Shown here: positions 353-16,247 of the stretch, piece by piece
Layout of the letters: the number at the start of each line of letters is the position of its first letter
Numbering within the stretch: the stretch's first letter is position 1
Virus record (IMG/VR): IMGVR_UViG_2609459826_000002
From: a virus
Lineage: Duplodnaviria; Heunggongvirae; Uroviricota; Caudoviricetes
Length of the DNA: 64,000 bases
Reading direction: 5' to 3' (one strand)
The notes under the pieces: generated by a model
The model's input: the letters and a program-made list of their open reading frames with translations, nothing else
Database searches by the model: none
Told to the model about the DNA's origin: nothing
Program-made: the position numbers and the translations under genes

Positions 353-600
353 TTGGCGTTCCGTTCTTCTGGCCGTCCGCTGCAATGCCAAATACTGTAA
401 TCGACAGCTGGTCCAGTATGGTGTTTTTGAAGTTCAACGGGGCGAAATTTTCTGCCTCTGATTACCCTGTGCTGGCGAAAGTGTTTCCTTCACTGGTATT
501 ACCTGAAGCCCGCGGTGATTTCATTCGTATCTGGGATGACGGGCGAGGTGCCGATGGTGGTCGCGAATTATTAAGCTGGCAGGAAGCTACAAACTTTTCT
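353..600 (+). pseudogene. Tail fibre gene fragment (Stf/tail-collar-like motif), inverted relative to the tail module
   Basis: Plus-strand translation IGVPFFWPSAAMPNTV...FNGAKFSASDYPVLAKVFPS..LPEARGDFIRIWDDGRGADGGRELLSWQE resembles the conserved side-tail-fibre motif; no intact N- or C-terminal context; boundaries approximate. Confidence 0.5.
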
Positions 601-819
601 CAGTTTGCTGCGCTGAAGCAGCCACAGTCGGGAGCCGTAACGGTCATTCTGTACCGCAGGCCAGGTATCCCCCCACCATCCCATCGGGACGTCGGCGTTG
701 TCATCAGGCTCCGCCCGCCGCCAGGTAAACAGGGAAATCACCACGGCGCGGGTCAGCGGATCCAGCGGTGCGCTGGCGCAGGTGCGTTTACCGTTCACCG
801 TCAGCCACAGTTCCATCAT
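571..819 (-). CDS. Mu gp46-like baseplate protein, apparently 3'-truncated at a rearrangement junction near 595
   Basis: 82-aa ORF with conserved-looking core ISLFTWRRAEPDDNADVPMGWWGDTWPAVQNDRYGSRLWLLQRSKL; ATGA overlap with upstream gpV-like gene; C-terminal residues read antisense into the tail-fibre fragment. Family assignment from memory. Confidence 0.45.
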   Translation of the reverse strand: MMELWLTVNGKRTCASAPLDPLTRAVVISLFTWRRAEPDDNADVPMGWWGDTWPAVQNDRYGSRLWLLQRSKLRKVCSFLPA

Positions 820-1364
820 GCCTCCATCGCTTTATCCGGTTTGTCGGTGTTACTGCCCTGACCGTTCTCTCTGTGACGATGCCCGTTATAGGCAAGCCGC
901 ATCGCTGACATGGTGGTACCGCCGGAGTCGCACAGGTCTTTCACCTGTCCGGTCACTTCCAGGTCCATTTCAAAACGTGCTCTGGGCGCATTGCGAAACG
1001 TGATCGTTTTACCTGCACCGTCCACCACGATCCCCTCCCGGGTCAGCGTCACAGACTGCCCCTGATCGTCATAGACAGCCACCTCACCCGTCTGCAGCCC
1101 TTTCAGGCGGTAGCGCCGGTCCGACACCGTAACAACCACCGCATGAGAACGGTCGCCATCCGGAAACAACACCACCGCTTCCGCACCGCTGTTTGCCCTT
1201 GCGGTAAAACCGTAGGGTTCAAGATGTTCAATCCCGGCTTTGGGTTCACCGGCAATCAGGGACACATCCACGGTCTGACATTTCGTGGCGGCACTGATGC
1301 TTTTCACCACTGCCCGCCCAATCAGGCCGAGAAGTTGTCGCTGCATGGCTTCAATCGTCCTCAT
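816..1364 (-). CDS. Baseplate assembly/spike protein V-like (P2 gpV / Mu gp45 family)
   Basis: 182-aa ORF, position downstream of gpP-like hub gene, sequence resembles phage baseplate assembly protein V. Confidence 0.7.
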   Translation of the reverse strand: MRTIEAMQRQLLGLIGRAVVKSISAATKCQTVDVSLIAGEPKAGIEHLEPYGFTARANSGAEAVVLFPDGDRSHAVVVTVSDRRYRLKGLQTGEVAVYDDQGQSVTLTREGIVVDGAGKTITFRNAPRARFEMDLEVTGQVKDLCDSGGTTMSAMRLAYNGHRHRENGQGSNTDKPDKAMEA

Positions 1365-2443
1365 CAGAACGGGTCCTCCTGTACTCTGGCTTTTTTCTTT
1401 TTCCGCGCGCCGGGGTCTTCGGGTTCAGGCAGATAAGCATCAGGCGGGCCGACACGGATTTCCGTCAGGGTGCCGTTCTGGTCCTGAGTAAACGTGACTT
1501 CCGAAACAAGCAGTTCGGTATTGTCGAAACCACAGACCGGATCGAAGACAATCACCCGCTGGTTGGGCTGCCACAGCGTACCGTTACCCTGTCGCCAGCC
1601 CTGAACCACATAGGTGGTTTCATCCGTCCGCGCCGCCCGTTGTCGGGCTTCAAAGTCCGCACGGGCAATACAGCCTGCCCCCGTAGCCTGCCCTGTCTGC
1701 CTGATATACATCGGACGGTAACGGGCAATAAATGCGTCCTCTGTGCGGGCCCGCAGCGCGGTGGTGGTGGCCTCACCGAAATCATCGTCGTTTCCGGCAC
1801 GCTGCCCCGCCACCTGGTAAACAGAAAACCGCTCCCGGATACTCTTCTCCGTATCACAGGAAAGGATATTTTCCCCAAGTACCAGCGCGGTATGTGCCCG
1901 CGTTGAGCCAATACCGCCAATCACCAGCCTGCCGTGCGGGTCGTCGTAAGCCAGTGCCTGCTGCTGACCGAGTATTTTGTTGATCACCTCAATCACCGTT
2001 TCGCCGTGATCAGGCTGGACATCAGGAATAACACCCGACGGCGCACTGTTGTTCACCACCTCAATGCCGAAAGGCGCAGCAAGCGCCTGCGTAATCTGTA
2101 CCAGCGATCGTCCGTTAAACTGTGTCGGTTCGGCTGCACAGTCAATCAGGTCAGCGGTCAGACTGCGTCCGGCAATACCGGTGCTGACCGAACGGGCATC
2201 GTAACGAACGGGCGTCGCCTCCACCCAGCCGGTGATCACCAGCTCATCACCAATCAGCACCTCCACTTTTGAACCGTTTTTAATGCGCGGCTGAAGCGTG
2301 GTGATACCCTCATCTCCCGGCCACTGTCGGGTGATCTCCACACTGAAATCCCGCGCCAGCCGTTCAATACCGGCACCGATGCGTACCGATGTCCAGCCAT
2401 TCCACTCCCGGCCATTTACCCGTAGCGTGACATTGTCGTTCAT
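1364..2443 (-). CDS. Tail/baseplate hub protein (Mu gpP / P2 gpD-like late control D family)
   Basis: 359-aa ORF; overlapping stop/start with neighbours; conserved position after DNA circularisation gene. Confidence 0.75.
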   Translation of the reverse strand: MNDNVTLRVNGREWNGWTSVRIGAGIERLARDFSVEITRQWPGDEGITTLQPRIKNGSKVEVLIGDELVITGWVEATPVRYDARSVSTGIAGRSLTADLIDCAAEPTQFNGRSLVQITQALAAPFGIEVVNNSAPSGVIPDVQPDHGETVIEVINKILGQQQALAYDDPHGRLVIGGIGSTRAHTALVLGENILSCDTEKSIRERFSVYQVAGQRAGNDDDFGEATTTALRARTEDAFIARYRPMYIRQTGQATGAGCIARADFEARQRAARTDETTYVVQGWRQGNGTLWQPNQRVIVFDPVCGFDNTELLVSEVTFTQDQNGTLTEIRVGPPDAYLPEPEDPGARKKKKARVQEDPF

Positions 2444-3774
2444 TGCACTGGCACCTTCAGAGGGATCACCGGCACAAAGCCGGGATGCGTAATGGCATTA
2501 CGCCGGATAATGTCCGCGTCACGCGCCGCGTTATCAAACCAGGTCGCCGCCAGCACCAGCGCGGGTAAAACCTCATCCGGTGTGCGCTGAATGATCCGTG
2601 CAGACTGTTCAAGGCGCGTGTTGATATCCGCATTCAGATCTGCTTTCACCCGGCGCAGCGCCAGAAACAGCGCATCACTGGTTGTACGGGACAACTCCTT
2701 ATCAATTGCCGTATTCAGTGTGTCGCGAATGTCAGTCAGTTCTTCCCACGTCGGCAGGTCAACCGTGTTTTTCACCGCCGGTGCATTGTTCAGTGCCGGA
2801 TGCGTGACGGAAGGCCAGCCAGTGCTCTGCGCAGGTGTTGTTGCCTGCCCCACTGCGGAATTCTGCATCACCGCGGAAGTTGTTGGCGCAGGCAATCGGG
2901 TGATGGCATACGCCGCTTCGCTGATTGCGGTCGTACGAAGGGTGCTGGCAACCACATTACGCTGCTGCGTAGCCGTGGCGGTGGTTTTACTGTCCGTTTT
3001 CCAGACGCCGCGCGGTTGCAGATCGCTGCCGAGGCTGACACCGGAAAGCGTTTTGATCATGGTGACCAGGTCGCTGGCGTTACCATAAAGGCGTTTCCCG
3101 GTACGCCACATTTTCTGCACCTGCTCAACGAAATTTTTGCCTGACGATGGCGGCGGCAGAAGTACCGAGATATCCCCCTGCAACAGCCTGGCGGCATCCG
3201 ATACGGCAGAATCCACCACTTTCATCGCATCAGAAACATACCCCAGCATTATGCTGGCATTACCGATAACGTCGTTCTGCACGAAATCCGCCACACCATC
3301 GATACTGAAACCGCTGAAGCTGTCACTGATGCAGTCATCCAGTGCAGAACAGGATGACATCAGCGTCTGCGCCGTCGCCGCACCTGATGTGGGGTAAGAG
3401 AGTTCTCCTGCTTCGACAAACTTCAGGTCAAAGCGGACAATACGCCCTTCACTTTTCGATGTGCTGACCCGAACTTCCCCGTCAACACAGACTTTCAGCT
3501 CACCATATGTCGGGTGGACAAGCGTGCCGGGACCGGGTTTATTCAGCGCTTCAATCAGGCGATCGCGCTGGTCAAAGCAGTCATCTCCCACCACATAAGC
3601 TGTGATGGACGGGCGGAAAGTGACTTTTCCCAGATCTTCGGTATAGGGCTTGTCGCGGTTCGGGTATTCATGTGTTTCCACACGGCGACCGGTTCCCGCA
3701 CTTTCTTCTTCAACCTTAAACGGCACACCTCGAAATGACGCATCCTGAAGCCTGTCTTTCCACGTCATATACAC
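2440..3774 (-). CDS. Mu gpN-like DNA circularisation / tail protein
   Basis: 444-aa ORF beginning MYMTWKDRLQDASFRGVPFKVEE..., typical N-terminus of Mu N-like proteins; tail-module position. Confidence 0.75.
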   Translation of the reverse strand: MYMTWKDRLQDASFRGVPFKVEEESAGTGRRVETHEYPNRDKPYTEDLGKVTFRPSITAYVVGDDCFDQRDRLIEALNKPGPGTLVHPTYGELKVCVDGEVRVSTSKSEGRIVRFDLKFVEAGELSYPTSGAATAQTLMSSCSALDDCISDSFSGFSIDGVADFVQNDVIGNASIMLGYVSDAMKVVDSAVSDAARLLQGDISVLLPPPSSGKNFVEQVQKMWRTGKRLYGNASDLVTMIKTLSGVSLGSDLQPRGVWKTDSKTTATATQQRNVVASTLRTTAISEAAYAITRLPAPTTSAVMQNSAVGQATTPAQSTGWPSVTHPALNNAPAVKNTVDLPTWEELTDIRDTLNTAIDKELSRTTSDALFLALRRVKADLNADINTRLEQSARIIQRTPDEVLPALVLAATWFDNAARDADIIRRNAITHPGFVPVIPLKVPVQ

Positions 3775-3780
3775 TCCGAA

Positions 3781-3809
3781 AATAAAAAAGCCACCTATTA
3801 GAAGGTGGC
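3781..3809 (-). terminator. Rho-independent terminator downstream of the tail-operon moron
   Basis: Perfect 7-bp stem GCCACCT/AGGTGGC with 6-nt loop, followed on the minus strand by a T-run (plus strand AATAAAAAAG upstream). Confidence 0.6.
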
Positions 3810-3829
3810 CTTGTAATGAATTTTATTAA

Positions 3830-4360
3830 TTAGCGAGTCAGAAACAACGAATCTTTATACTTTTGCTGTTGTTCATTTAAATACTTAGCTGTTTCATCGC
3901 TGGCAAATGGAAATATTACCGTATTTTTAGGCATGGTAATTTCTTTTTTGTCCAGCGTCAGAGTAAACATAGGAACATACTGAGCAGAGTAACGCACCGC
4001 AGAAACGAGCTCTAGTTTAGACTCTTCAATAACACTTAAATTATCCAGGCTAACTTTCTCTTCATCTTTTTTCTTTGACGCATTTAAAGTTTTTATTACT
4101 TTATTTAATTTCTCCTGAAAATCCTCCTTAAAGTTTTCAGGATTGCCGTCGACAACAAGAATCTGTTCACCCTGATTATCTGGAAAAATAATCTTTGCAC
4201 TTATCAATTTATTTTCTTTATAAACATCACCAAGTTTTATGGCTCCTCCAGATAACTGAATAATATGTTCATCTTTAAAGGAGATGTTGCCAGAGATTAT
4301 GAGAGATGAAAAAATAGCCGCTGCTCCAAGAATTACACTTGCTGTGATATAGCCTTTCAT
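3830..4360 (-). CDS. Hypothetical secreted or membrane-anchored protein (moron inside tail operon)
   Basis: 176-aa ORF with N-terminal hydrophobic segment MKGYITASVILGAAAIFSSLIISG; visibly AT-rich relative to flanking tail genes; own upstream AT-rich region and downstream terminator. Confidence 0.6.
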   Translation of the reverse strand: MKGYITASVILGAAAIFSSLIISGNISFKDEHIIQLSGGAIKLGDVYKENKLISAKIIFPDNQGEQILVVDGNPENFKEDFQEKLNKVIKTLNASKKKDEEKVSLDNLSVIEESKLELVSAVRYSAQYVPMFTLTLDKKEITMPKNTVIFPFASDETAKYLNEQQQKYKDSLFLTR

Positions 4361-4451
4361 TTTTCGCCTATTAACATTTTTCTAAATGTGCATTAATTCT
4401 ATCACTCTATTTATGACTTACAACCAGCAATACATGTGAGGGGAATCCTGG

Positions 4452-6284
4452 CTACCAAAATCGGGTATAGCCAACATCGTGATTTATATCAATGCCACTG
4501 GAGCGTGTTTCCGTAACCCGCATACCTGGTGGCATATTTATAAATGATACCTTGATCTCACCATCAACTTTTGGCGCGGTAGCTTTATTAATCATGAAGG
4601 GATTCGAGCCTGTGGCATCGGAGGCGTTGTTTGCCTGAGCCGGATCCACCGCCGGATAAGGAGTGTATCCCCGTGCCGGTATTCCCGTCCCATAAGCATC
4701 ATAAGCACCCGCGCCCCACTGCGCAGAGTTAATGGCATCGACCGTGTCACCGGAACTGTCGGTAAACCACTCAATAATTGGCTTCAGCTTGTCCCACATA
4801 TCCTGAAACCACTTAACAACCGGCCCCCAGTTATTGATCACCATCCCCATCGGCGACCAGGCAAAAACTTTCTTAAGGAGTTCCCAGCCAGCCTCAAAAT
4901 AAGGACCAATGGTTTCCCAGAGCTTCTTGAAATAAGGTCCGACAACATCCCAGTTAGTGATAATTAATCCCGCAGCCAGGGCTATCGCCGTCGCAATCAT
5001 GCCAATCGGCGTCATCGACATGATCCTGCTGACAATGCTGATGGCACTGCCCACGCCCATCAATCCCAGTTTCAGAATCGCAAGACCGGCAGCAAGCCCG
5101 ACGACGCCGCGAATAACCCGGGGATTTTCATCCGCAAACTTCGTGAATTTTTCCCCCAACTCCCCCAGCCATTGCGTGATATTTTTAGCGTCACCAGAAA
5201 ATGCGCCGCCAATAGCCGCAAGGCCGTTAGTTGCGGTCCCTGTCATTGCCTCCCACAGGTTGGACAGCGTACCAAGCTGTGCCTGAACACGTTTATTCAG
5301 GCTGGCCTGTTTATTCATCTTCTGCTGGATCTGATCGTAGCCATCCTTTCCTTTATCGATTAGTGCATTGACCACCTGAAGGGTTTCGGCATCATCACCA
5401 AATATTGCCTTAAGTACACCGGTTCGCTTAACGTCGGTCAGTTTTCGCAGCTTTGCCAGTTGCCCGAACATGTTATCAAGACCGCCAAAACTCCCTTTGC
5501 CATCAGTAAAATCGAGCTGTACCCCGAGTTTCTGGCGGGCCATGATTTTATTGACGTCCCTGATTTTCTTAACGCTTAATCCGGACTGGATAACTTTTCG
5601 CAGGGCATTACCTGCCGACTCCCCGTTCATCCCCATCTGATCCATCATGACACTGATGGGGGCAAGACTCTGTGCAGCCTGAAGACCGTCCTTATTCACC
5701 ATCTTCAGAACAGAGCTGGTTTTAGTGAAGAATGACAGCATGTTGGTGTCGTCAACGCCCAGATAAAACGCCTTCTGAATTGTGTCGAACAGCCCCATCA
5801 TGTCTTCTGAGGCCGTTCCGGTAGCATCCTGCATCTTTGCGGCAAACTCGGCAGCCGCTTCCGGTGTTTTTTTCAGTTGTACCGCAAGATAAGCTGTCGC
5901 TTTACCCACACCACCCAGAATGTTTTCTGCCGGGATCCCCTGACGCACCAGCATCTGCATCATGTTCTGGAAATCAGCCGTTGTACCGGGTAGCTGGTTA
6001 CCCAGGCCAATAGCCAGTTTATTGATGTCCTGAAAGCTCTTTCCAACCTCGCCGTTCGCATCCATCATGGCGACTTTCAGCCCGGTAGCGGCGTTTTCCT
6101 GATCGGCATAAGATTTCAGGGAAAGCGTCAGCCCCGCTGCCAATCCGCCACCAAGCGCCAGCCCACCCTGTGACGCCTCTTCCGCCTGGCGTTTAAATCC
6201 CCGGATTTTCTTTTGCATTTTCGACAGCGCGGGAGAAAGCCTGTCGACACCGGTGATCAACGCCTTAAGCTCAAATTCAGCCAT
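4452..6284 (-). CDS. Tail tape measure protein
   Basis: 610-aa ORF, Gly/Ala-rich central region with hydrophobic segments, located between chaperone and baseplate genes. Confidence 0.8.
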   Translation of the reverse strand: MAEFELKALITGVDRLSPALSKMQKKIRGFKRQAEEASQGGLALGGGLAAGLTLSLKSYADQENAATGLKVAMMDANGEVGKSFQDINKLAIGLGNQLPGTTADFQNMMQMLVRQGIPAENILGGVGKATAYLAVQLKKTPEAAAEFAAKMQDATGTASEDMMGLFDTIQKAFYLGVDDTNMLSFFTKTSSVLKMVNKDGLQAAQSLAPISVMMDQMGMNGESAGNALRKVIQSGLSVKKIRDVNKIMARQKLGVQLDFTDGKGSFGGLDNMFGQLAKLRKLTDVKRTGVLKAIFGDDAETLQVVNALIDKGKDGYDQIQQKMNKQASLNKRVQAQLGTLSNLWEAMTGTATNGLAAIGGAFSGDAKNITQWLGELGEKFTKFADENPRVIRGVVGLAAGLAILKLGLMGVGSAISIVSRIMSMTPIGMIATAIALAAGLIITNWDVVGPYFKKLWETIGPYFEAGWELLKKVFAWSPMGMVINNWGPVVKWFQDMWDKLKPIIEWFTDSSGDTVDAINSAQWGAGAYDAYGTGIPARGYTPYPAVDPAQANNASDATGSNPFMINKATAPKVDGEIKVSFINMPPGMRVTETRSSGIDINHDVGYTRFW

Positions 6285-6459
6285 GTGTGCGTTTCTCCTG
6301 CTCTATCCTGTTTGCCTGACTGACCAGCAAGGGAATTTCACTGATCGGCATATTCAGCAATTCGAAGGGATTAATGCGCCAGTAGCTGGCGCAGTCAAAG
6401 AAGCGATCAGTGAGGTATTCAGCCGTCAGGCCTGGAGGAAAAAACCAGCCACAAGCCAC
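6277..6459 (-). CDS. -1 frame extension ORF of the tail assembly chaperone (frameshift product C-terminal part)
   Basis: ORF in the -1 frame overlapping the chaperone 3' end and ending at the tape measure start; contains FFPPGLTAEY immediately after the slippery site. Confidence 0.55.
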   Translation of the reverse strand: MACGWFFPPGLTAEYLTDRFFDCASYWRINPFELLNMPISEIPLLVSQANRIEQEKRTHG

Positions 6460-6695
6460 GCCGCTGCATTCAGGTCTGCCGGAGACATCTGGTCGACAGA
6501 GCTTTGCGGCACTTTCGCCAGCCGCACAATGTATTTCGACACCACATGCGCCAGAAGTCTGACGGACTCATCCTGATTCATCTGGTAGGGATACCCCAGC
6601 TCGCGGACATCCTTCCCGGTGGGTTCATCAAACTCCAGTACGGAGAGTGTCTCACCATGAGCGATAATCGGTTTCTTTAACTCAAGCTCTTTCAT
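6426..6695 (-). CDS. Tail assembly chaperone (Mu gp41 / lambda G-like)
   Basis: 89-aa ORF between tail tube and tape measure; overlapping downstream -1 frame ORF. Confidence 0.65.
   Translation of the reverse strand: MKELELKKPIIAHGETLSVLEFDEPTGKDVRELGYPYQMNQDESVRLLAHVVSKYIVRLAKVPQSSVDQMSPADLNAAAWLVAGFFLQA
6438..6444 (-). promoter_or_regulatory. Candidate -1 programmed ribosomal frameshift slippery heptamer T_TTT_TTC
   Basis: Minus-strand sequence GCT GGT TTT TTC CTC near the chaperone stop; the -1 frame continues as an open ORF to 6277. Confidence 0.55.
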
Positions 6696-7051
6696 TACTG
6701 GTAATCCCCTTCTTCACCGTGGAACTCAAGATCAACCGTGCCTTCTTCGGCATTATGGTTCGCTTCTCCGTGCAGCCAGGCGGACGACAATACATAGACC
6801 TGACCGTTCGCCAGCTCGGCAGTGATGGTCATCTCATCAGACGAGGTGATTTTGCTCACCGGAAAATTCTTCGGCACCTTGAAGGTCCCTTTGACATAAG
6901 GCGCACGGTGAGTTTCCTTGCGGTCCACTGAACCGTCCAGGCCGATGATGTCATCATTGACCGTCCTGTTCATGGGCACCTCAATGCCGCCGGTCAGCGA
7001 TAGCTGCTGACCGTCAATTTTGAAATAACAGGTTCCCCCGATACGGGCCAT
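6695..7051 (-). CDS. Tail tube protein (Mu gpM-like)
   Basis: 118-aa ORF directly downstream of the sheath gene with ATGA-type overlap. Confidence 0.75.
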   Translation of the reverse strand: MARIGGTCYFKIDGQQLSLTGGIEVPMNRTVNDDIIGLDGSVDRKETHRAPYVKGTFKVPKNFPVSKITSSDEMTITAELANGQVYVLSSAWLHGEANHNAEEGTVDLEFHGEEGDYQ

Positions 7052-8547
7052 TATGCAGACTCCTCTGAATACTGAAGACGGAACTGGTTAACCACGGCAA
7101 AGACACGCAACTGGTTAACATAGTCAGGCGGGAACAGCGTGTTCAGGCGGTTCGGATCGCTGGCATCACGCTCCACAACCAGGTACTGCTTAAACAGTTC
7201 GTAGTTTTCCACGATCCCCGCACGCTCAAGCTGACGGTAGGTTGCCAGCAGTTCCCCTTTGATCACCGCCGGGGTGACAATCGCCTGACCGGGACCAAAG
7301 CGGGTACCGTCACTGGCAAGCTTGTGACGCCCGTACTTACTGGTAATGACGGATTTCAGTTTGCGCAGTACATACGCGCTGGTATGCAGTGTCTCACTGT
7401 CGAGGTAGCTGTTATCCGCAACCCCGTAAGCGTTTTTCCTGTACGTGGTGACATCACGCTGAATGCGCAGTACCCCGCTTTCGACATACGCCGTTGCCAC
7501 GCCATGAGACAGCAGGGTCTGTTGTTCGGTCATCGTGAACCGTTTCCCCTTCGGCGCAGGCAGCATACCCACCAGCTCACCGGTCTGCGTGGGACGTGCC
7601 GGATCGTTGCGGATAAACACCGCTGCGCGGGCGGTACGGCTTGCCGCAAGTTCGTCGGCAGGCGTCTGGGTCTCTTTTTCGTACCCTGCCAGGGTAATGT
7701 GCTGCTGGTTAAACTGGTCACCTGCGGTCACCAGTTCTGACAGCGTGCCGATCTTTGCCGTATACACATGACCATACAGCTGACGCGCATAGCTCCAGCG
7801 ACCGCTGGTATCGTTCATCTCGGTCACCAGCGTGTTAACGGAGGCCGTGTCGTTGAACGGCAGGCCGATATAATCAAACGGCTCATCCGCCATTGCAGCC
7901 ACCGCGCCGGTGAGAACCGGAGCACCCGTTCCGGCGGTACCCGTCGCCACGGCAATCTGTACGCCCGCTGGCAGCACTTCGCCCCCACCAAAGCCGTAGT
8001 AATTGAGGCTGACAGGAATTTCATTCCCGCAAAGCCCCTTATGACGCGCGGTAAGTGTGACCACGCCTGCCGAAGATGAAGCCGTAAACGGCAGGGCCGG
8101 AACGGCATTGATGGCATCTTTGATACTGCTGGCAATCGTCGTGACGTTATCGCCGTTGGTCACCGGAGCCTGCACGCGGGTACGTCCCACATAGACATTC
8201 ACCGTGCCGCTTTCGGTTGCTTCCCCGGTCACCGCCAGCGTAACCGTTGCCGCCGCGCCTGTGGCTTCCGGAACGGCAATCACATACAGCTCACCAAACG
8301 GGTCTGTCTGGCGATAAGCCTCGACCATACGCGCCAGCTGACTTCCCGCACCACAAATCTGGCGTGCATAGTCTGCCGACGGCATCAGCACCAGACTGTT
8401 GGCAACAATCTCTGCACCGTTATTGGCATGACCAATCAGCAGCGATGCTCCGCTGTCCTGTGCAGTATTCGCAGCCTGGTTATCCATTTCCGCATAAAAC
8501 AGCGGAACCAGCGTATTCGACGGAATGGTGTTAAAGCTTATCGTCAT
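7051..8547 (-). CDS. Contractile tail sheath protein (Mu gpL-like)
   Basis: 498-aa ORF; size, position and composition typical of myovirus sheath proteins. Confidence 0.85.
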   Translation of the reverse strand: MTISFNTIPSNTLVPLFYAEMDNQAANTAQDSGASLLIGHANNGAEIVANSLVLMPSADYARQICGAGSQLARMVEAYRQTDPFGELYVIAVPEATGAAATVTLAVTGEATESGTVNVYVGRTRVQAPVTNGDNVTTIASSIKDAINAVPALPFTASSSAGVVTLTARHKGLCGNEIPVSLNYYGFGGGEVLPAGVQIAVATGTAGTGAPVLTGAVAAMADEPFDYIGLPFNDTASVNTLVTEMNDTSGRWSYARQLYGHVYTAKIGTLSELVTAGDQFNQQHITLAGYEKETQTPADELAASRTARAAVFIRNDPARPTQTGELVGMLPAPKGKRFTMTEQQTLLSHGVATAYVESGVLRIQRDVTTYRKNAYGVADNSYLDSETLHTSAYVLRKLKSVITSKYGRHKLASDGTRFGPGQAIVTPAVIKGELLATYRQLERAGIVENYELFKQYLVVERDASDPNRLNTLFPPDYVNQLRVFAVVNQFRLQYSEESA

Positions 8548-8709
8548 CGGTGTTCACCTTTTTATTCACGCGCCGGATATCACCCGCTGCTTCACGGCGC
8601 AGCCAGTAGTTGTTCTCGTCAACATTTCGCCCTTCGGCGGGCAAAAGGTCGCCGCGGGCAGGGTCAGGCACTGACCGCCCTTTAACAGGTTTGACAAACA
8701 TGAGGATCC

Positions 8710-9270
8710 TCAGGAAGGAAGGGTTATTTCGGTGTGATGTTCGATATCGCCGTCAGGCCCGTTACCGGGCTCGAGATAATCAACATCAATCGCCAGCGTT
8801 TGCAGTTCACCCAGACTGTTCAGATCATCCTGCTGGCGGGTATCGTCTTCAGTCAGCTCGCTGATGACCGAAAAATCGAACTGATAAATCAGCTCATGAC
8901 GATTCAGATCCAGCAGCGTGCCGCCGTCATAGGTAATCGGGTTACCGCACGCTTCCGGGTTCCAGCCCAGCAGGGCCTTAAAGAGCATTTGCCGGACATC
9001 GTCCACCACATCATACGAGGAAAACTGACCGCGCTCATCACGCCCGTTACTCAGTATGACAACCACGGAGAAGCCCTCTTTCAGCTCCTGCCAGTAGTCG
9101 GTCTGGCTTTTGTTTTCTCCCGGAGAGTCATCACCCGGTACCACATACGCCGCCGGGAGTCTCAGCTTTCCGACCTCCGGCAGATTTTTGAACTGTGCCG
9201 CGCCTGCCACCCGGTTTTCAAAATACGGGCAGCGGGCACGCAGCGCAGCAATAACAGGCGTCAGTTTCAT
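8710..9270 (-). CDS. Virion protein, candidate tail completion/terminator (Mu gp37-like)
   Basis: 186-aa ORF between head-tail joining genes and sheath; family assignment tentative. Confidence 0.4.
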   Translation of the reverse strand: MKLTPVIAALRARCPYFENRVAGAAQFKNLPEVGKLRLPAAYVVPGDDSPGENKSQTDYWQELKEGFSVVVILSNGRDERGQFSSYDVVDDVRQMLFKALLGWNPEACGNPITYDGGTLLDLNRHELIYQFDFSVISELTEDDTRQQDDLNSLGELQTLAIDVDYLEPGNGPDGDIEHHTEITLPS

Positions 9271-9773
9271 CTGTGTCGTCGCTCCGGCTTCAGTGATTTA
9301 CGCAATTCCCGCGCCAGAAAATAGCGTGTCCAGCTGCGGTTCTTTTCAAGCGTTTCCACCATGAAGTTATTACGTGGAGCCAGTCGCCAGCCGCTGCCAC
9401 CGGATGCACCACGATGATGACTACGACGACGTTTTGCTCCTCCCCGGACACCAAAAAACAGAAACGCCGGATAGAAGTCACCAGAGATCATCCGGTTCCC
9501 CTTCCCGTTGCGCTGGTTAGGGGCAATGCGTGTCATAAAACCGGCTCGCTTTTTACTGGCTCTCGGCACCATATAACCAATCGAACGAGCCAGGCGTCCG
9601 GTCTGATAACCGGGGTTTTCACCCGGTGCCGACCGCGCACGGCGCATCACCAGCCGACGGGCATCACGCATATGACGCTGCCCAATCGTGACAAACGCCC
9701 GCCGGACACGGGCGCGGTTAAAGCGCATCTCGGCGGGCTGCTGAACATCAACGTGAAAAAAGGGAGTCGCCAT
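9267..9773 (-). CDS. Head-tail joining / virion morphogenesis protein (HK97 gp10-like); true start may be internal
   Basis: Basic 168-aa ORF in head-tail connector cluster; 5' end overlaps upstream gene. Confidence 0.45.
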   Translation of the reverse strand: MATPFFHVDVQQPAEMRFNRARVRRAFVTIGQRHMRDARRLVMRRARSAPGENPGYQTGRLARSIGYMVPRASKKRAGFMTRIAPNQRNGKGNRMISGDFYPAFLFFGVRGGAKRRRSHHRGASGGSGWRLAPRNNFMVETLEKNRSWTRYFLARELRKSLKPERRHR

Positions 9774-10158
9774 TGCTGCCTCCGTGACTCTGCCTACATT
9801 CGCCCAGCTCCGTACACTCCAGCAGCAGAAAGCGCCGCGCCCCGTTCAGATCACGCTGACGTTTCACCCGGTACACACTGTCATCACAGACCACCTCATA
9901 ATCAGCAGTGATCCCCCGGCGGTAACGAATGGTGATGTAATGGGTGATGGCGTCCCCGGTCTGCGCGGTTTCCTGCCAGGTGGTGGCACTGGTCTGGATA
10001 ACCTTCGCCCATGTCCGGAACGTAACCGGGTATTGAGACTCCACGCCAAAGTTATCCGCGGGCATATCCACCCGCTGGCGGATCAGGACGCGTTTATTCA
10101 GTTCACCGGGGTCCGGCAGAATGTAGGTTGCGCTGGTCTGCGCCTGACGAATTTTCAT
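9748..10158 (-). CDS. Head closure / head-tail adaptor protein
   Basis: 136-aa ORF in connector cluster downstream of capsid gene. Confidence 0.5.
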   Translation of the reverse strand: MKIRQAQTSATYILPDPGELNKRVLIRQRVDMPADNFGVESQYPVTFRTWAKVIQTSATTWQETAQTGDAITHYITIRYRRGITADYEVVCDDSVYRVKRQRDLNGARRFLLLECTELGECRQSHGGSNGDSLFSR

Positions 10159-10478
10159 TGCGGAAAGTACCTGTACGGGCCGACAAGCCAGCCAAAACTC
10201 TGCGGCATGTCGAGTTTCTCCACTTCCGTAACCGACGAGCGGTTTTCGTAAAAATGGCTGATAAGCATCAGCATCCCCAGACGAATATCATCCGGCAGGT
10301 GCAGCCCGTCCGGATCGCTGTCCGGAATGGTTTCATCCGGTGCATAGAGCTTCCGGTTCAGATACGTTTCCGTCCGCTTTTGTGCCGCACAGGCCAGCAG
10401 TTGCAGATGGCGGTCATCAGCATCGAAATCCTCATCCAGCCGGAGTTGGGCTTTAATCTCTTCCATTGTCAGAAGCAT
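10155..10478 (-). CDS. Head-tail connector protein (gp6-like)
   Basis: 107-aa acidic ORF immediately after capsid region. Confidence 0.55.
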   Translation of the reverse strand: MLLTMEEIKAQLRLDEDFDADDRHLQLLACAAQKRTETYLNRKLYAPDETIPDSDPDGLHLPDDIRLGMLMLISHFYENRSSVTEVEKLDMPQSFGWLVGPYRYFPQ

Positions 10479-10480
10479 AC

Positions 10481-10681
10481 TCAGCCCTCTTTACTGGTCG
10501 TGGCTTTTTTCTCTTTTGTCGCTTTACTGCTTTTTGCACTGGTTCCGCGCTCTGCTAACCCGGCCTGAAGTGCAATCTCCTGCACCCGGGCAGGAAGCGC
10601 CCCGTCGTCATACTCACCGGCCCGAATGACCTCAACACGCATACCGTCCGGTGACCATTTCAGATCTTGTTTCAGGATCAT
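10481..10681 (-). CDS. Small hypothetical phage protein
   Basis: 66-aa ORF with Lys-rich C-terminus between capsid and connector genes. Confidence 0.3.
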   Translation of the reverse strand: MILKQDLKWSPDGMRVEVIRAGEYDDGALPARVQEIALQAGLAERGTSAKSSKATKEKKATTSKEG

Positions 10682-10730
10682 GATTCTTCACCCGTCAGAA
10701 CAGGGGGCGCGGTTCCGCGCCCCTGAGTGA

Positions 10731-11936
10731 TTACGCCGCTGCAATCTTCAGCAGTTTGATGGCCTGCGAATCGACCAGCATCCCGCCGGTGCGCTTGGTG
10801 GTATAAAAACCGACAAACGGTTTATTGGTGTACGGGTCACGCAGAATGCGGGTGCCGATACGGTCAACGATGGTGTAACCCCGTTTGAAGTTACCAAATG
10901 CAATGGCTTTCGCATCAGCGGCGATATCCGGCATCTGTTCGTTTTCAGCGATACCGTAACCCGCCAGAGAGGACGGCTGCCCCAGTTCCAGCCCAGGACG
11001 CCACAGATAGTTACCCTCGGTGTCTTTCAGCAGACGGATGGCAAACAGGCTGTTGTTGTTCATCATGAACTTCGCGCCAGTGCGGTGTGCCTTTCGCAGC
11101 GTGTAAATCAGTTTGATAATGGCGTCTGCGGTCACCGCAGTCGCGTCGCCGGATACAATATGCTGAAGTTTGCCGAACGCCCGGACCTTATCGGTTTCAT
11201 CAGTGGACTCATACGCCAGGAACCCTTTCGGCTTCTTGGTGCCATCGCCGGAGGTAAAGGCAATTTCTTCCTGTTCGGCAAATTCGGTTGCCAGCTCGCT
11301 GTTGATCCAGGCCTCCACGTTGAAGAAGGCATCGTCCAGCATTTTCTGGGTAGCCTGCGGGTTGCCGTAGATTTCCCCCATGAGAGGTTCAATCAGCTCC
11401 AGTCTGGAGGTGGCAGTCTGGGATCGCGTATCCGTTTCCCCCACCCATCCGGAAGCCGTACCGCCCAGATTCACCAGTTTTTTGTAGTCGGAACCGCCAA
11501 CGGTGATCACCGTGGCTTCCTGACGCATCACCACTTCATCTTTCAGCAGGTTAAGAATGTTGCGATCCAGTTCTTCCGGCACGGCGTAGCCACCGTCTTC
11601 ATCGGTGCCCACCTGCAATGCCTTACGCTCCAGATCGCGCAGACCGTCTTCACGGCCTTTACGCAGGAAGCCCACAAACGCCTCTTTATGCTCGGTGGCC
11701 AGTTTATTTTGCGCTCCACCTGCCGGACGTTTCAGCTCAAGCAGCTCTTTTTCAAGGTCGCTTTTGAGATTTTCCAGCTCGCTGAGTTTTCCGTTCAGGG
11801 TTTCCACCTGCCCGGCAAGTTTGCCTTTTTCCTGCTCAATCGCCTCAACGCGCTTGTCGTTCTTTGCTTTGAAGTCGTCAAACTTCTGCTGCAGCTCCTG
11901 CGCGACCTGTTCGACATCTTTAATATCAACCGCCAT
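10731..11936 (-). CDS. Major capsid protein, HK97 family
   Basis: 401-aa ORF with N-terminal coiled-coil/delta-like region followed by HK97-like capsid domain. Confidence 0.9.
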   Translation of the reverse strand: MAVDIKDVEQVAQELQQKFDDFKAKNDKRVEAIEQEKGKLAGQVETLNGKLSELENLKSDLEKELLELKRPAGGAQNKLATEHKEAFVGFLRKGREDGLRDLERKALQVGTDEDGGYAVPEELDRNILNLLKDEVVMRQEATVITVGGSDYKKLVNLGGTASGWVGETDTRSQTATSRLELIEPLMGEIYGNPQATQKMLDDAFFNVEAWINSELATEFAEQEEIAFTSGDGTKKPKGFLAYESTDETDKVRAFGKLQHIVSGDATAVTADAIIKLIYTLRKAHRTGAKFMMNNNSLFAIRLLKDTEGNYLWRPGLELGQPSSLAGYGIAENEQMPDIAADAKAIAFGNFKRGYTIVDRIGTRILRDPYTNKPFVGFYTTKRTGGMLVDSQAIKLLKIAAA

Positions 11937-11950
11937 CGTATTTCTCCTGA

Positions 11951-12637
11951 TTAGAAGTTCAGATTTTTCAGTGCATTCAGTGCAGAGCCCACATCCTCAG
12001 CGTCGCGCAGGGACAGTGCGCCATAGCCCCCGGCCATGAATGCTTTGGCCTGGGTACGGGAGAGTCCGACATCACGCAGGACTCTTTCGATTTTTTTCTG
12101 TTCGGGGATTTCCCCGCGGGCCAGTGCGTTCTTGACGTCGCTGATCCGCGCCTCGTCGTTAGACGGGAACGTCACCAGGCTGACTTCCCAGAGGTCGATT
12201 TCTTTCAGCAGAAAGGCTTCTTTGCTCCGGTCGTATTCCCAGTCTTTCAGGACGTACCCAATAGAAAGGCCGGTTAACGAACCGGCCTTCATGTGTGCAT
12301 GTGCGCGTTTTGCGAGGGGATCATCATCAATAAGCAACCGTCCCCTGACGTAAAGCCCGACATCGTCTTCCTTCATTTCGGTGTAAACACCGATGGGTTC
12401 ATCCATGCGGTGCTGCCAGAGCAGCGCAGGTAACGCTTTTCTGTCACTCCACGCCCGCAGGGAAGCGGCAAATGCCCCTGACATCACCACATCATCGTGG
12501 CTGTCCTTTACACCAAAGACGGAGCCATACCCTTCAAACTCACCGGAGTCACTGACAGATTTCAGACTCAGCGGTACATCAAGACGTTGTTTCGTCTGCA
12601 TTGGCGTTATCCTTCTGCTTACCGGCTTTACTGCCAT
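11951..12637 (-). CDS. Prohead protease, HK97 family (start may be internal)
   Basis: 228-aa ORF between portal and capsid; conserved order portal-protease-capsid. Confidence 0.8.
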   Translation of the reverse strand: MAVKPVSRRITPMQTKQRLDVPLSLKSVSDSGEFEGYGSVFGVKDSHDDVVMSGAFAASLRAWSDRKALPALLWQHRMDEPIGVYTEMKEDDVGLYVRGRLLIDDDPLAKRAHAHMKAGSLTGLSIGYVLKDWEYDRSKEAFLLKEIDLWEVSLVTFPSNDEARISDVKNALARGEIPEQKKIERVLRDVGLSRTQAKAFMAGGYGALSLRDAEDVGSALNALKNLNF

Positions 12638-13820
12638 CGGAGGGTTTCGTGGTCATGTTCATCGGTGTGAGATAGACATCACCACCGGGACGCGGATTCA
12701 TATCTTCCAGGTCGCGGCAGTCATTGGGAGAGTAAATTCCCCAATTGATCCCGGTAGCGTAGGCTTCAAAACGGGACTTCATATCCCCGCGCAGTAAGGC
12801 CCCGGCGTTAAATTTGGCGTAATAAACGCCCTGCTTACTTTTTCGTACCAGTCCGGTGTTGATCCGCTGCTCAATGCGGGTCAGATACGGCACCAGTGAA
12901 TAGTTGATAAATCCCAGCCCCAGCTCTTCGATATTGTTGAAGGTGGCGCGATCGGTGTTCTGCACCATGTGCAACGGCACCCGGAACAGACGACAGATTT
13001 CTTCAAGCTGAAACTTGCGGGTTTCCAGGAACTGGCTGTCCTCGGCGTTCAGCGCCATCGACTTCCAGTCCAGCCCCATCTCAAGGATCATCGGGCGGTG
13101 AGCATTGCCAAGCCCGGTGTGACGCTCCTCAAAATCTTTCTTCAGGCGCTCATAAGCCTGATCTGACAGCGTCTGCTCTGTACGCAACACACCCGACGTC
13201 ACCGCGCCATTGCTGAACAGTCTGGCCCCGTGCTCTTCGGTCGCAGCTGCCAGCGATATTGCCTCGCGGGCATAGGCGATGGGATTCAGCCCCACCAGAC
13301 CGTCCAGCGTCAGCGTGCGCACATGCCAGATATCTTCCTGGCTCAGTACATCCGTAGAGCCGTCCGGGAATGTGACCTGATAGACCGGCTCCCAGCTACT
13401 GTTAAGCTTCGGTACCACACAGCCGGGATCGACGGGCAGCAGTTCAGCCACTTCGCCAAATGCTTTCACTTTGTAGGCGTAAAAGTTTCCCCGCAGGCAC
13501 AGACAGGTGACCACCAGCTCCCAGAACTCCTGCGGCGTCATATAGCCATTGGGATGCGTGGAGATCAGCTTATGCAGACGCTCGCCGGTGGCTCTCTGTT
13601 TCAGGCTGCCGTTCAGGTGATACAGATTGCAGGGCAACATCCCGACCGACTCTGCCAGCACCCTGACGCAGGAAAAAACCGCCGTCAGTCGCATGGCCCG
13701 CTGGCTGCTGATCTGCTTTCCGGTATAGGTGTCGTAGGACAACCCGATAGCATCCGCCAGCTCTGCTGGCGTGGTCACCGGTGCGTCACTTTTTCGTTGA
13801 AATAATCCCGAAAAGAACAC
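12579..13820 (-). CDS. Portal protein, HK97 family
   Basis: 413-aa ORF downstream of terminase large subunit. Confidence 0.85.
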   Translation of the reverse strand: MFFSGLFQRKSDAPVTTPAELADAIGLSYDTYTGKQISSQRAMRLTAVFSCVRVLAESVGMLPCNLYHLNGSLKQRATGERLHKLISTHPNGYMTPQEFWELVVTCLCLRGNFYAYKVKAFGEVAELLPVDPGCVVPKLNSSWEPVYQVTFPDGSTDVLSQEDIWHVRTLTLDGLVGLNPIAYAREAISLAAATEEHGARLFSNGAVTSGVLRTEQTLSDQAYERLKKDFEERHTGLGNAHRPMILEMGLDWKSMALNAEDSQFLETRKFQLEEICRLFRVPLHMVQNTDRATFNNIEELGLGFINYSLVPYLTRIEQRINTGLVRKSKQGVYYAKFNAGALLRGDMKSRFEAYATGINWGIYSPNDCRDLEDMNPRPGGDVYLTPMNMTTKPSDGSKAGKQKDNANADETTS

Positions 13821-14002
13821 TATTTACCTCCGCCGACAGACGACTGTGTACGGTCGAGATATCGCGCCACCAGCCACGACCAGAACAGGCACAACGCCCC
13901 GGCAACAACAAACCCCGCCGGGGGATAAATCAGCCAGGCACCATACGCCAGCAAAAGCGCCCCCAGCACGCCCACCAGAGGCGCGAGAATCAGCATGATC
14001 AT
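13820..14002 (-). CDS. Small hypothetical membrane protein
   Basis: 60-aa ORF, two hydrophobic helices, between terminase and portal. Confidence 0.3.
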
Positions 14003-14013
14003 AATTACCTCAG

Positions 14014-15747: not shown

Positions 15748-16247
15748 GATTCGATGATTTTCAGAAACTGGTTAGTGGCTTTCTTCTGCCCCGCCAGGCC
15801 AATCAGACGCTGGCGGCTGCTGGGGTCGAGTCCGAGCATTGCCCCCGTGCTGCTCATCTCGGACTCCTGTTCTTTCTTGGCGGTCAGCTCCGGATTTTTG
15901 ACCATGCCACCCATTGCACCGGTGATGGTGTTGCCCTGTCTGGCAATATTTTTCACGGCACGCCGCCAGAACTCGTAGGCCACGCACCACCGCTCAAGCA
16001 CCGCGAGGTCAGTCACGCACAGCAGGCCCTGACCGCAGAGTTCTTTGGTTGTCAGTTGCCACATGATCGTGGCGAGAGGGAGATCTTCTTCAGCGAACCA
16101 CTCCGGTGGCTCAACACCTTTGATGGGCGTAAAAACAGGTTCATCTTTATTCAGGGCTCGCTTGCCGGGGTTTCCGGCCAGCGCCTTGCGCGCCGTTGGC
16201 TTGGGGCGACGCCCGGAACGCCCCGCCGTTCCAGCCATATGCGGCAC
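15744..16247 (-). CDS. Terminase small subunit (P27 family-like)
   Basis: 167-aa ORF overlapping TerL start. Confidence 0.75.

What the first reader, a model, noticed from the sequence alone, without database searches (positions are those of the whole stretch)
6277..6695. Programmed -1 ribosomal frameshift site in the tail assembly chaperone gene
The chaperone ORF ends in GGT TTT TTC CTC ... TGA; the heptamer T_TTT_TTC is a canonical -1 slippery sequence, and the -1 frame is open from that point to just before the tape measure start. The extension peptide (FFPPGLTAEY...) matches the overlapping 60-aa ORF. This is the conserved G/GT-type arrangement and supports the functional integrity of the tail chaperone.
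Basis: partly seen in the sequence, partly recalled or inferred. Interest (0 to 1): 0.4.

Follow-up and report, generated by a model that had tools for sequence, protein, structure and literature searches.

The report
Tail chaperone -1 frameshift site confirmed
The prophage gene between the tail tube and tape-measure genes contains a strictly conserved slippery T-run that lets some ribosomes slip back one base and make a longer second protein, the ordinary arrangement in long-tailed phages although public annotations of this phage group omit it.

Summary
An 89-aa chaperone gene (6695..6426, Pfam Phage_TAC_7) sits between the tail tube and tape-measure genes. It carries T_TTT_TTC (6444..6438) in the X_XXY_YYZ phase, 9 nt before its TGA. 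From there the -1 frame stays open for 53 codons and stops at 6279..6277, 8 nt inside the tape-measure gene (ATGGCTGA). All 96 SfV-type loci recovered by protein homology keep GGT-TTT-TTC, although 76 of 83 upstream third-codon positions vary. Two further clades (phiP27/SfIV/ST64B; Yersinia YeP1) and a Hamiltonella prophage keep T_TTT_TT[T/C] at the homologous Phe-Phe codons. Purifying selection switches from frame 0 to frame -1 past the G stop. The layout matches phage P2 E/E+E' (T_TTT_TTG; 91/142 aa versus 89/139 aa; same 8-nt overlap). No canonical stimulatory hairpin or upstream SD-like element was found. An invariant 8-bp hairpin lies 45 nt downstream, and its role is unknown. This is a well-supported member of the known G/GT class. 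It is unannotated in every record examined and of low novelty. Ribosomal slippage cannot be separated from transcriptional slippage by computation.

The parts
6426..6695 (-). G: tail assembly chaperone ORF, 89 aa plus TGA stop (zero frame). Its ATG overlaps the TAA stop of the tube gene (TAATG).
   Evidence: Pfam PF10109 Phage_TAC_7, E=2.4e-15, residues 4-86 matching profile positions 2-78 of 79. PGAP names it 'phage tail assembly protein'.
6438..6444 (-). Slippery heptamer T_TTT_TTC (P-site UUU, A-site UUC, both Phe). After a -1 slip both tRNAs can re-pair on UUU UUU.
   Evidence: The phase was checked. It is invariant in 96 of 96 SfV-type loci (43 distinct sequences), while the preceding Ala codon uses all four synonymous codons.
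6426..6437 (-). Short dual-coded stretch between the heptamer and the G stop: CTC CAG GCC TGA in frame 0, and (C)CT CCA GGC CTG A in frame -1.
   Evidence: It is nearly invariant in homologs.
6277..6438 (-). T extension: 53 codons in the -1 frame (PPGLTAEYLTDRFFDCASYWRINPFELLNMPISEIPLLVSQANRIEQEKRTHG) plus the TGA at 6279..6277. C6438 is read twice.
   Evidence: pN/pS is 0.04-0.50 in frame -1 against 0.85 or higher in the other frames. It aligns without gaps to the T parts of other clades. It matches phrog_32181, 'unknown function'.
6282..6284 (-). ATG of the tape-measure gene (4452..6284). It overlaps the GT stop as ATGGCTGA. An AGGAG Shine-Dalgarno sequence lies at 6299..6295, inside the T coding sequence.
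   Evidence: PF10145 PhageMin_Tail. The overlap is conserved in homologs and is the same as in P2.
6375..6393 (-). Invariant 8-bp hairpin UGCGCCAG-CUA-CUGGCGCA inside the T coding sequence, starting 45 nt after the heptamer. Its function is unknown, and assigning it to the frameshift signal is only a possibility.
   Evidence: 8 of 8 pairs never vary. Four synonymous stem positions are invariant in 43 distinct sequences. The palindrome is unique in the window. It is not kept in Hamiltonella.
6695..7051 (-). Tail tube gene immediately upstream (118 aa).
   Evidence: PF10618 Tail_tube, E=2.4e-33.
7051..8547 (-). Tail sheath gene (498 aa), which marks this as a contractile tail.
   Evidence: PF04984, PF17482 and PF17481.

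Best explanation
This is the G/GT-type recoding site of an SfV/SfII-like prophage with a contractile tail. It is the counterpart of phage P2 E/E+E'. Most ribosomes translate the 89-aa chaperone G and terminate at the TGA at 6428..6426. A minority slip back one base when tRNA-Phe occupies UUU (P site) and UUC (A site) of GGU-UUU-UUC, re-pairing on UUU-UUU. They then read CCU CCA GGC... for 53 more codons and terminate at the TGA that overlaps the tape-measure ATG. The product is a 139-aa GT protein with the G domain at its N-terminus and a T domain at its C-terminus. By analogy with lambda G/GT and P2 E/E+E', G and the G part of GT coat the tape-measure protein. The T part recruits the tube protein, so that tube and sheath polymerise to the length set by the tape measure. 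The fixed G:GT ratio is set by the frameshift frequency, and neither protein is expected in the virion. Shown here: the sequence anatomy, the family assignment of G, the conservation of the T-run in phase, and the switch of selection into the -1 frame. Inferred: that the shift is ribosomal, its frequency, and the roles of G and T.
For: Anatomy. The heptamer is in phase. The -1 frame is open for 53 codons and ends on the tape-measure start.

Context. The gene order is sheath, tube, TAC_7 chaperone, tape measure, then a Mu-like baseplate.

Conservation within the SfV-type clade. All 96 loci found by protein homology carry GGT TTT TTC. Among 43 distinct sequences, 76 of 83 third-codon positions upstream vary, but the three third positions within the heptamer never do. 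The adjacent Ala codon is GCT, GCC, GCA or GCG.

Conservation beyond that clade. The phiP27/SfIV/ST64B clade (85 loci, 42 distinct) has T_TTT_TTT at the aligned Phe-Phe codons although its zero-frame tail is 21 codons longer. Yersinia YeP1 has GGT TTT TTT, and the Hamiltonella prophage has GGT TTT TTC. In these groups the -1 ORF runs to the tape-measure start (in Hamiltonella to a stop just past it).

Protein products. T domains align without gaps over 54-57 aa and share A-x-[YF]-W-[RK]-[ILM]-N-P. Predicted GT lengths are 136-147 aa.

Selection. pN/pS is 0.06-0.21 in frame 0 upstream of the site. In the T-only part it is 0.04-0.50 in frame -1 and 0.85 or higher in the other frames. Synonymous changes make up 0.59 of codon differences in frame -1, against 0.08 and 0.12 in the other frames.

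No conserved independent start. Seven of 43 distinct sequences, among them the Pantoea, Buttiauxella, Citrobacter, Atlantibacter and Scandinavium lineages, have no ATG, GTG or TTG in the -1 frame upstream of the heptamer.

Known analogue. P2 E+E' is annotated with a -1 shift at T_TTT_TTG. Its TAC_7 domain ends at residue 85, and E/E+E' are 91/142 aa. The E+E' stop overlaps the tape-measure start by 8 nt (PMC3091744).

Slipperiness. U_UUU_UUC is a measured -1 shifter in E. coli: 0.12% alone, 0.89% with the IS911 stimulators and 7.6% with the IS3 pseudoknot (PMC4066793 supplement).
Against: There are no experimental data for this phage group. No public record examined annotates a joined CDS here. 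No stimulatory hairpin lies within about 10 nt downstream (z = +0.2 to +0.7 against shuffles), and no conserved upstream SD-like sequence was seen by eye. The heptamer alone gave only about 0.12% shifting in a reporter, so a lambda-like level of a few per cent would need context effects that I could not identify. The T domain does not match the Pfam family of P2 E' (PF06528), and hhalign gives only 9% probability. The conserved Gly-Phe-Phe residues contribute to nucleotide conservation, although they do not explain the invariant synonymous positions.
Confidence: 0.85

Rival explanations
1. Transcriptional slippage. RNA polymerase inserts one extra U while copying the T6 run (T7 in the other clades). 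A fraction of mRNAs then carries G and T in one frame and is translated normally into the same GT protein.
For: What is conserved is a homopolymeric T-run of 6-7 bases. A one-base insertion would give exactly the same GFFPPG junction, which follows from the sequence. Runs of U7 and A7 are under-represented in E. coli genes in all three phases, possibly for this reason (PMC4066793).
Against: From general knowledge rather than a test here, efficient slippage by E. coli RNA polymerase usually needs runs of about 8-9 or more, so T6 is short. The run is always in the X_XXY_YYZ phase, although that phase is also fixed by the conserved Phe-Phe codons. P2, the closest characterised relative, is annotated and cited as using a translational frameshift.
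Confidence: 0.07
2. The 60-aa ORF (6459..6277) is an independent small gene started at its own GTG, as annotated in phage vB_EcoM-689R6. No fusion protein is made.
For: A GTG lies 15 nt upstream of the heptamer in the window and in 33 of 43 distinct homologs. One GenBank record annotates the ORF as a hypothetical protein, and it has its own PHROG family.
Against: No Shine-Dalgarno sequence precedes the GTG (GCAGCGGC GTG). Seven of 43 distinct sequences, among them the Pantoea, Buttiauxella, Citrobacter, Atlantibacter and Scandinavium lineages, have no start codon in the -1 frame upstream of the heptamer. In those sequences the -1 frame opens only 21-48 nt before the heptamer, yet the T sequence is conserved from the heptamer onward. 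This reading also does not explain the invariant synonymous positions of the heptamer.
Confidence: 0.03
3. Relic or chance. G and T derive from a gene broken by a 1-bp indel, or the heptamer is incidental and the 141-nt gap is non-functional.
For: Single-ORF fusion versions exist in databases (P0001-P0006; L131). An in-phase heptamer in a window of 12-47 codons has roughly 5-19% chance probability, given the rate.
Against: The fused versions are singletons full of other indels, or differ by a single 1-nt insertion elsewhere. The two-frame arrangement is kept in about 180 loci across three clades whose synonymous sites are close to saturation (pS up to 0.86). Purifying selection acts on T in the -1 frame.
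Confidence: 0.03

Closest known systems
Phage P2 E / E+E' (-1 programmed frameshift at T_TTT_TTG in the FI-FII-E-T-U-D tail operon)
   Same: Both are in contractile-tail phages, with the gene lying between the tube and tape-measure genes. The G part belongs to the same Pfam family: PF10109 covers profile positions 2-78 of 79 in both proteins and ends at the shift site (residue 85 in P2, 86 here). Both have a T6 run in the X_XXY_YYZ phase within a V/A-G-F-[L/F] motif. Product sizes are 91/142 aa in P2 and 89/139 aa here. In both, the stop of the long product overlaps the tape-measure ATG by 8 nt. No downstream hairpin is reported for P2.
   Different: The last base of the heptamer is C here (A-site Phe UUC) and G in P2 (A-site Leu UUG). 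The T part does not match PF06528 (Phage_P2_GpE), and profile comparison is inconclusive at 9% probability. The rest of this phage has an HK97-like head and a Mu-like baseplate, not those of P2.
Phage lambda G / GT (-1 frameshift at G_GGA_AAG; G:GT about 30:1)
   Same: The logic and gene position are the same, between the major tail or tube gene and the tape measure. [quoted passage not shown] This is the functional model used here (PMC5009743).
   Different: Lambda is a siphovirus, and no sequence similarity was detected. Its heptamer is different and uses tRNA-Lys. The window's G belongs to the TAC_7 family.
Phage Mu gp41 (Mup41), the chaperone of the Mu tail module
   Same: The surrounding module is Mu-like: sheath L, tube M, DNA_circ_N, gpP and gp45 homologs. 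Mu gp41 also scores on PF10109, just below the family threshold (24.7 bits against a cut-off of 25).
   Different: Mu is reported to use a -2 shift rather than -1 (Xu et al. 2004, as cited in PMC5009743 and PMC2628397). Mu gp41 is 144 aa and belongs mainly to PF23746.
E. coli dnaX and IS911/IS3 -1 frameshift signals
   Same: Both use tandem slippage on an X_XXY_YYZ heptamer in E. coli. U_UUU_UUC is also used by some IS elements (PMC4066793).
   Different: Those signals have a defined upstream SD-like element and/or a downstream hairpin or pseudoknot 5-9 nt away. No such element is found here.

Membership tests
G/GT-type (P2 E/E+E'-type) tail assembly chaperone with programmed frameshift | The gene lies between the major tail/tube gene and the tape-measure gene | tested here: met
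   Tube 7051..6695, G 6695..6426, tape measure 6284..4452, all on the minus strand.
G/GT-type (P2 E/E+E'-type) tail assembly chaperone with programmed frameshift | The short product is homologous to a known tail assembly chaperone family | tested here: met
   PF10109 Phage_TAC_7 at 56.7 bits (cut-off 25), E=2.4e-15. P2 E+E' hits the same family.
G/GT-type (P2 E/E+E'-type) tail assembly chaperone with programmed frameshift | [quoted passage not shown] | tested here: met
   T_TTT_TTC at 6444..6438, 9 nt before the stop. It is the only in-phase heptamer in the -1-open zone.
G/GT-type (P2 E/E+E'-type) tail assembly chaperone with programmed frameshift | The alternative frame is open from the slip site to about the start of the tape-measure gene | tested here: met
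   53 codons, with the stop overlapping the tape-measure ATG by 8 nt, as in P2.
G/GT-type (P2 E/E+E'-type) tail assembly chaperone with programmed frameshift | The slip site and two-frame layout are conserved in diverged relatives, and the extension is under coding selection | tested here: met
   Invariant in 96 of 96 SfV-type loci. The T-run is kept in three clades and in Hamiltonella. pN/pS is lowest in the -1 frame downstream.
G/GT-type (P2 E/E+E'-type) tail assembly chaperone with programmed frameshift | The T/E' extension is homologous to that of a characterised member | tested here: inconclusive
   No Pfam hit for T, and PF06528 is not matched. hhalign against P2 E' gives 9% probability, with a collinear W..P.EL motif only.
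G/GT-type (P2 E/E+E'-type) tail assembly chaperone with programmed frameshift | Both products are actually made in a fixed ratio and both are needed for tail assembly | not testable with these tools
   Requires immunoblotting or mass spectrometry and genetics. No such data were found for SfV-like phages in the literature searches.
Stimulator-dependent -1 PRF signals (dnaX / IS3 / IS911 type) | A stable hairpin or pseudoknot starting 5-9 nt 3' of the heptamer | tested here: not met
   The first 40-50 nt fold no better than shuffles (z = +0.2 to +0.7). Only a 3-4 bp helix appears, and it is broken in some homologs.
Stimulator-dependent -1 PRF signals (dnaX / IS3 / IS911 type) | A conserved SD-like sequence 6-17 nt 5' of the heptamer | tested here: not met
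   The upstream 30 nt vary freely at synonymous sites and contain no GGAGG- or AGGA-type element in the window or in homologs, judged by inspection.

The most novel reading that the evidence does not exclude
The invariant 8-bp GC-rich hairpin (6393..6375) lies 45 nt downstream of the heptamer and is enclosed by a weakly covarying outer helix. It could be a functional RNA element of the SfV-type clade. One possibility is an unusually distant modulator of the G:GT ratio. Another is a regulator of mRNA stability or tape-measure translation in the 141-nt stretch that most ribosomes never enter. Either role would add a second layer of control to a G/GT site, something not described for this class.
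Probability: 0.1. Interest if true: 0.35.

Novelty: new member of a known kind. Interest (0 to 1): 0.15.

Why it matters
The main value is for annotation. The SfV/SfII/SfI, phiP27/SfIV/ST64B and related prophage tails are very common: this segment is present in 1063 of 5426 complete E. coli genomes. Every record examined nevertheless leaves the 141-nt stretch unannotated or calls it a hypothetical 60-aa ORF, and PHROG 32181 is listed as 'unknown function'. Recognising the GT product gives that ORF a function. It also provides a marker of tail-module integrity when judging whether such prophages, including serotype-converting and Stx-associated ones, can still make particles. Finally, it adds a T_TTT_TT[C/T] series to the catalogue of natural E. 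coli frameshift sites that work without an obvious stimulator. It does not change the understanding of frameshifting or of tail assembly.

Tried and rejected
- **Structure prediction.** The single-sequence AlphaFold2 model of GT was unusable (mean pLDDT 45.6), so no fold search was run.
- **Solved structures.** A PDB sequence search returned only weak hits of the junction region to an N-terminal motif of light-harvesting proteins. I regard these as chance.
- **Protein families.** NCBIfam has no model for GT or for P2 E+E'. Pfam has no family for the T part.
- **Remote homology.** hhalign of the T alignment against P2 E' was inconclusive.
- **RNA and signal scans.** Rfam gave no credible family. 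The promoter and terminator scan found nothing in 6100..6800.
- **Locus sampling.** The first viral-contig scan, with alignment A1, returned only near-identical copies. Diversity came instead from genome contigs, the phage collection and a second scan seeded with phiP27.
- **Database fusions.** The full-length 'fusion' proteins P0001-P0006 looked at first like natural in-frame GT genes. They are singletons carrying several other indels and were rejected as evidence.
- **Literature.** Xu et al. 2004, Christie et al. 2002 and the SfV genome paper are not held. The PRFect supplement does not list the Xu phages. I therefore could not establish whether SfV was already among the 28 phages of Xu et al. 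The E. coli-wide heptamer screen of Sharma et al. 2014 did not report this cluster.
- **Other ideas considered.** I considered a Pro-Pro-Gly stall in the -1 frame as a feature, but it is not conserved (P-[PSQA]-G in the SfV-type homologs, L-P-G in Hamiltonella). I also considered the nearby zero-frame stop as a stimulator, but it lies 3 codons away here and 21 codons away in clade 2.
Full report
**1. Observation**

All genes in this part of the window run on the minus strand. The ORF 6695..6426 encodes 89 aa ending ...AAWLVAGFFLQA*. Its last codons are GCT GGT TTT TTC CTC CAG GCC TGA. The heptamer TTTTTTC occupies 6444..6438 and begins at the third base of GGT, so it is in the X_XXY_YYZ phase. 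The -1 frame is open from 6567 to the TGA at 6279..6277 and contains the 60-aa ORF listed at 6459..6277.

A -1 shift on the heptamer gives a 139-aa protein, ...VAGFF-PPGLTAEYLTDRFFDCASYWRINPFELLNMPISEIPLLVSQANRIEQEKRTHG. The -1 stop overlaps the ATG of the next gene (6284) as ATGGCTGA. The finding's phrase 'just before the tape measure start' should therefore read 'overlapping it by 8 nt'.

**2. Context**

Pfam assigns the 89-aa protein to PF10109, Phage_TAC_7 ('tail assembly chaperone proteins E, or 41 or 14'), at E=2.4e-15. The neighbouring genes are:

- upstream, the tail tube (PF10618) and tail sheath;
- downstream, the tape measure (PF10145);
- further downstream, a Mu-like baseplate (DNA_circ_N, gpP-like, gp45).

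The segment is 99.8% identical to Shigella phage SfII and 98.6% to SfV and SfI. It is present in 1063 of 5426 complete E. coli genomes. RefSeq/PGAP, the SfV and SfII RefSeq records and the other phage records annotate only the 89-aa protein and leave a 141-nt gap. One record calls the 60-aa ORF hypothetical. None has a joined CDS.

**3. Conservation of the slip site**

Loci were collected by protein similarity to G, not by the motif. They came from 11 genome contigs, the annotated E. coli and phage records fetched earlier and 80 viral contigs.

All 96 SfV-type loci carry GGT TTT TTC at the same codons. They comprise 43 distinct sequences, down to about 71% nucleotide identity (Pantoea, Edwardsiella, Citrobacter, Buttiauxella, Scandinavium, Kluyvera, Atlantibacter). 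In these 43 sequences, 76 of the 83 third-codon positions upstream of the heptamer vary. The Ala codon directly before it is GCT, GCC, GCA or GCG. The three third positions inside GGT-TTT-TTC never vary.

The site is also kept outside this clade:

- A Hamiltonella prophage with a 67%-identical G keeps GGT TTT TTC.
- A second clade (phiP27, SfIV, ST64B; 85 loci, 42 distinct; G of 105-111 aa) has T_TTT_TTT at the aligned Phe-Phe codons. Phe85 and Phe86 are invariant in alignment A1. In this clade the zero frame continues for 21 more codons.
- A third clade (Yersinia YeP1) has GGT TTT TTT.

In all three clades the -1 ORF ends on the tape-measure start; in the Hamiltonella prophage that stop is lost and the frame runs 6 nt further. 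The predicted GT proteins are 136-147 aa. Their T parts align without gaps over 54-57 aa and share a conserved A-x-[YF]-W-[RK]-[ILM]-N-P motif.

**4. The extension is a coding sequence in the -1 frame**

Upstream of the site, pN/pS against six diverged homologs is 0.06-0.21 in frame 0 and above 1.5 in the other frames. Downstream of the G stop it is 0.04-0.50 in frame -1 and 0.85 or higher in the others. pS reaches up to 0.86, so synonymous sites are close to saturation.

Variable sites in the T-only part fall on 26, 15 and 39 of about 49 first, second and third positions of the -1 frame. Synonymous codon differences are 59% of all differences in that frame, against 8% and 12% in the other two.

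**5. Rival explanations**

- **Independent initiation of T.** This is unlikely. The GTG at 6459 has no Shine-Dalgarno sequence. Seven of the 43 distinct sequences, among them the Pantoea, Buttiauxella, Citrobacter, Atlantibacter and Scandinavium lineages, have no start codon at all in the -1 frame upstream of the heptamer. In some of them that frame opens only 21-30 nt before the heptamer.
- **Broken-gene relic.** This is contradicted by the conservation and selection data above. The 'fused' database proteins are indel-ridden singletons. One clade-2 locus, L131, is fused by a single G insertion 37 nt downstream of the run.
- **Chance.** In-phase heptamers occur at about 0.004 per codon in this window, and only 2 of 83 are followed by 50 or more open -1 codons. 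The identical 11-mer in the portal gene (13678..13668) is out of phase.
- **Transcriptional slippage on the T-run.** This cannot be excluded by computation, because a one-U insertion gives exactly the same protein. I rate it low because T6 is short for E. coli RNA polymerase (general knowledge) and because the P2 counterpart is described as a translational shift.

**6. Stimulatory elements**

The 40-50 nt after the heptamer fold no better than shuffled sequence (z = +0.2 to +0.7). The only local helix has 3-4 bp and is broken in some homologs. No SD-like element is conserved upstream. The upstream 30 nt vary freely at synonymous sites.

Absence of a stimulator is the usual situation for phage G/GT sites and for P2 (PMC3091744). 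In an E. coli reporter, however, U_UUU_UUC alone gave only 0.12% shifting. It gave 0.89% with the IS911 stimulators and 7.6% with the IS3 pseudoknot (PMC4066793 supplement). The real frequency here is therefore unknown.

One feature stands out. It is a perfect 8-bp hairpin, UGCGCCAG-CUA-CUGGCGCA (6393..6375), that starts 45 nt after the heptamer. All its stem bases are invariant in 43 distinct sequences, including four synonymous positions, while 39 of 49 third positions in the T region vary. Only the first loop base changes. The segment from +27 to +98 folds with z = -2.5, and an outer helix shows a few compensatory changes.

The hairpin is too far away to act as a classical stimulator. It is absent from clade 2 and is degraded in Hamiltonella. 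It has no U-tract after it, and the palindrome is unique in the window. I record it as unexplained.

**7. Mechanism (shown versus inferred)**

Shown here are the two-frame anatomy, the family of G, the phase-correct and conserved T-run, and coding selection on T in the -1 frame.

Inferred from lambda G/GT and P2 E/E+E' (PMC5009743; PMC3091744) is the following:

- Tandem or P-site slippage of tRNA-Phe from UUU-UUC to UUU-UUU produces a minority GT product.
- G and the G part of GT bind the tape-measure protein.
- The T part recruits the tube protein.
- Both proteins leave the finished tail.

**8. Comparison with known systems**

The closest characterised system is P2 E/E+E'. It shares the Pfam family for the G part, which ends at the shift site in both proteins. 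It also shares the T6 run in phase, similar product sizes (91/142 aa against 89/139 aa) and the same 8-nt overlap with the tape-measure start. The differences are the last heptamer base (C here, G in P2) and a T part with no detectable relation to P2 E'.

The tail module is otherwise Mu-like, yet Mu itself is reported to shift by -2. Lambda G/GT is analogous in logic but unrelated in sequence.

**9. Novelty and verdict**

This is a solidly supported but ordinary example of the conserved tail-chaperone frameshift. It is not annotated in any record I examined. I could not check whether Xu et al. 2004 already listed SfV. I classify it as a new (or at least unannotated) member of a known kind and give it low interest.

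The only unexpected observation is the invariant distal hairpin. I give about 10% probability that it is a functional part of this recoding or expression signal.

Noticed in passing
window 6375..6393 (minus strand): A perfect 8-bp GC-rich hairpin, UGCGCCAG-CUA-CUGGCGCA, lies inside the T coding sequence 45 nt after the heptamer. Every stem base is invariant in 43 distinct homologs, including four synonymous sites, although neighbouring synonymous sites vary. It is not kept in the Hamiltonella or clade-2 relatives, and its function is unknown.
   Followed up: partly
L131 (IMGVR_UViG_2529292715_000008), about 37 nt after its T7 run: In one phiP27-type locus, G and T are fused into a single 140-aa ORF by a one-base G insertion (CCTCCGGGAAACG instead of CCTCCGGAAACG). 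This is either a sequencing error or a natural variant that would make only GT.
   Followed up: no
Database proteins P0001-P0006: The only database proteins that cover the whole GT query are singletons from read-assembly collections. They carry several additional indels around the T-run and elsewhere. They look like homopolymer sequencing errors, not natural fusions.
   Followed up: yes
window 6285..6425; L001 (E. coli GE3); L003 (phage vB_EcoM-689R6): Public annotation leaves these 141 nt empty. In GE3 the locus-tag numbering skips RS11795 between the chaperone and tape-measure genes. One phage record calls the 60-aa ORF hypothetical, and its PHROG family (32181) is labelled 'unknown function', although it is the T part of GT.
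   Followed up: yes
window 13668..13678 (minus strand, portal gene 12579..13820): The identical 11-mer GGTTTTTTCCT occurs a second time in the window. There it is out of the X_XXY_YYZ phase and only 19 -1 codons are open after it. It serves as an internal example of a chance occurrence.
   Followed up: yes
window 49718..49724 (plus strand, ORF 48153..50279): An in-phase T_TTC_CCG heptamer sits in a long plus-strand ORF and is followed by 127 open -1 codons. The motif is reported as a poor shifter that is over-represented in E. coli genes, so this is probably chance. The gene was not identified.
   Followed up: no
window 600..16715 compared with L185 (E. coli GE3): The 561-bp query is 100% identical to many E. 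coli chromosomes, but the surrounding structural module is only 97.6% identical to strain GE3. Collinearity breaks up beyond about 17 kb. The window therefore comes from a different mosaic SfV/SfII-like prophage, and its source strain was not identified.
   Followed up: partly
GT residues 74-120 (junction region): The frameshift junction sequence (W-x-x-G-F-F-P-P-G-L-T-A-E-Y-L-T-D-R-F-F-D) weakly resembles an N-terminal motif of chloroplast light-harvesting proteins in the PDB search (E about 0.003 for the whole sequence, with no significant single stretch). I judge this a coincidence.
   Followed up: no
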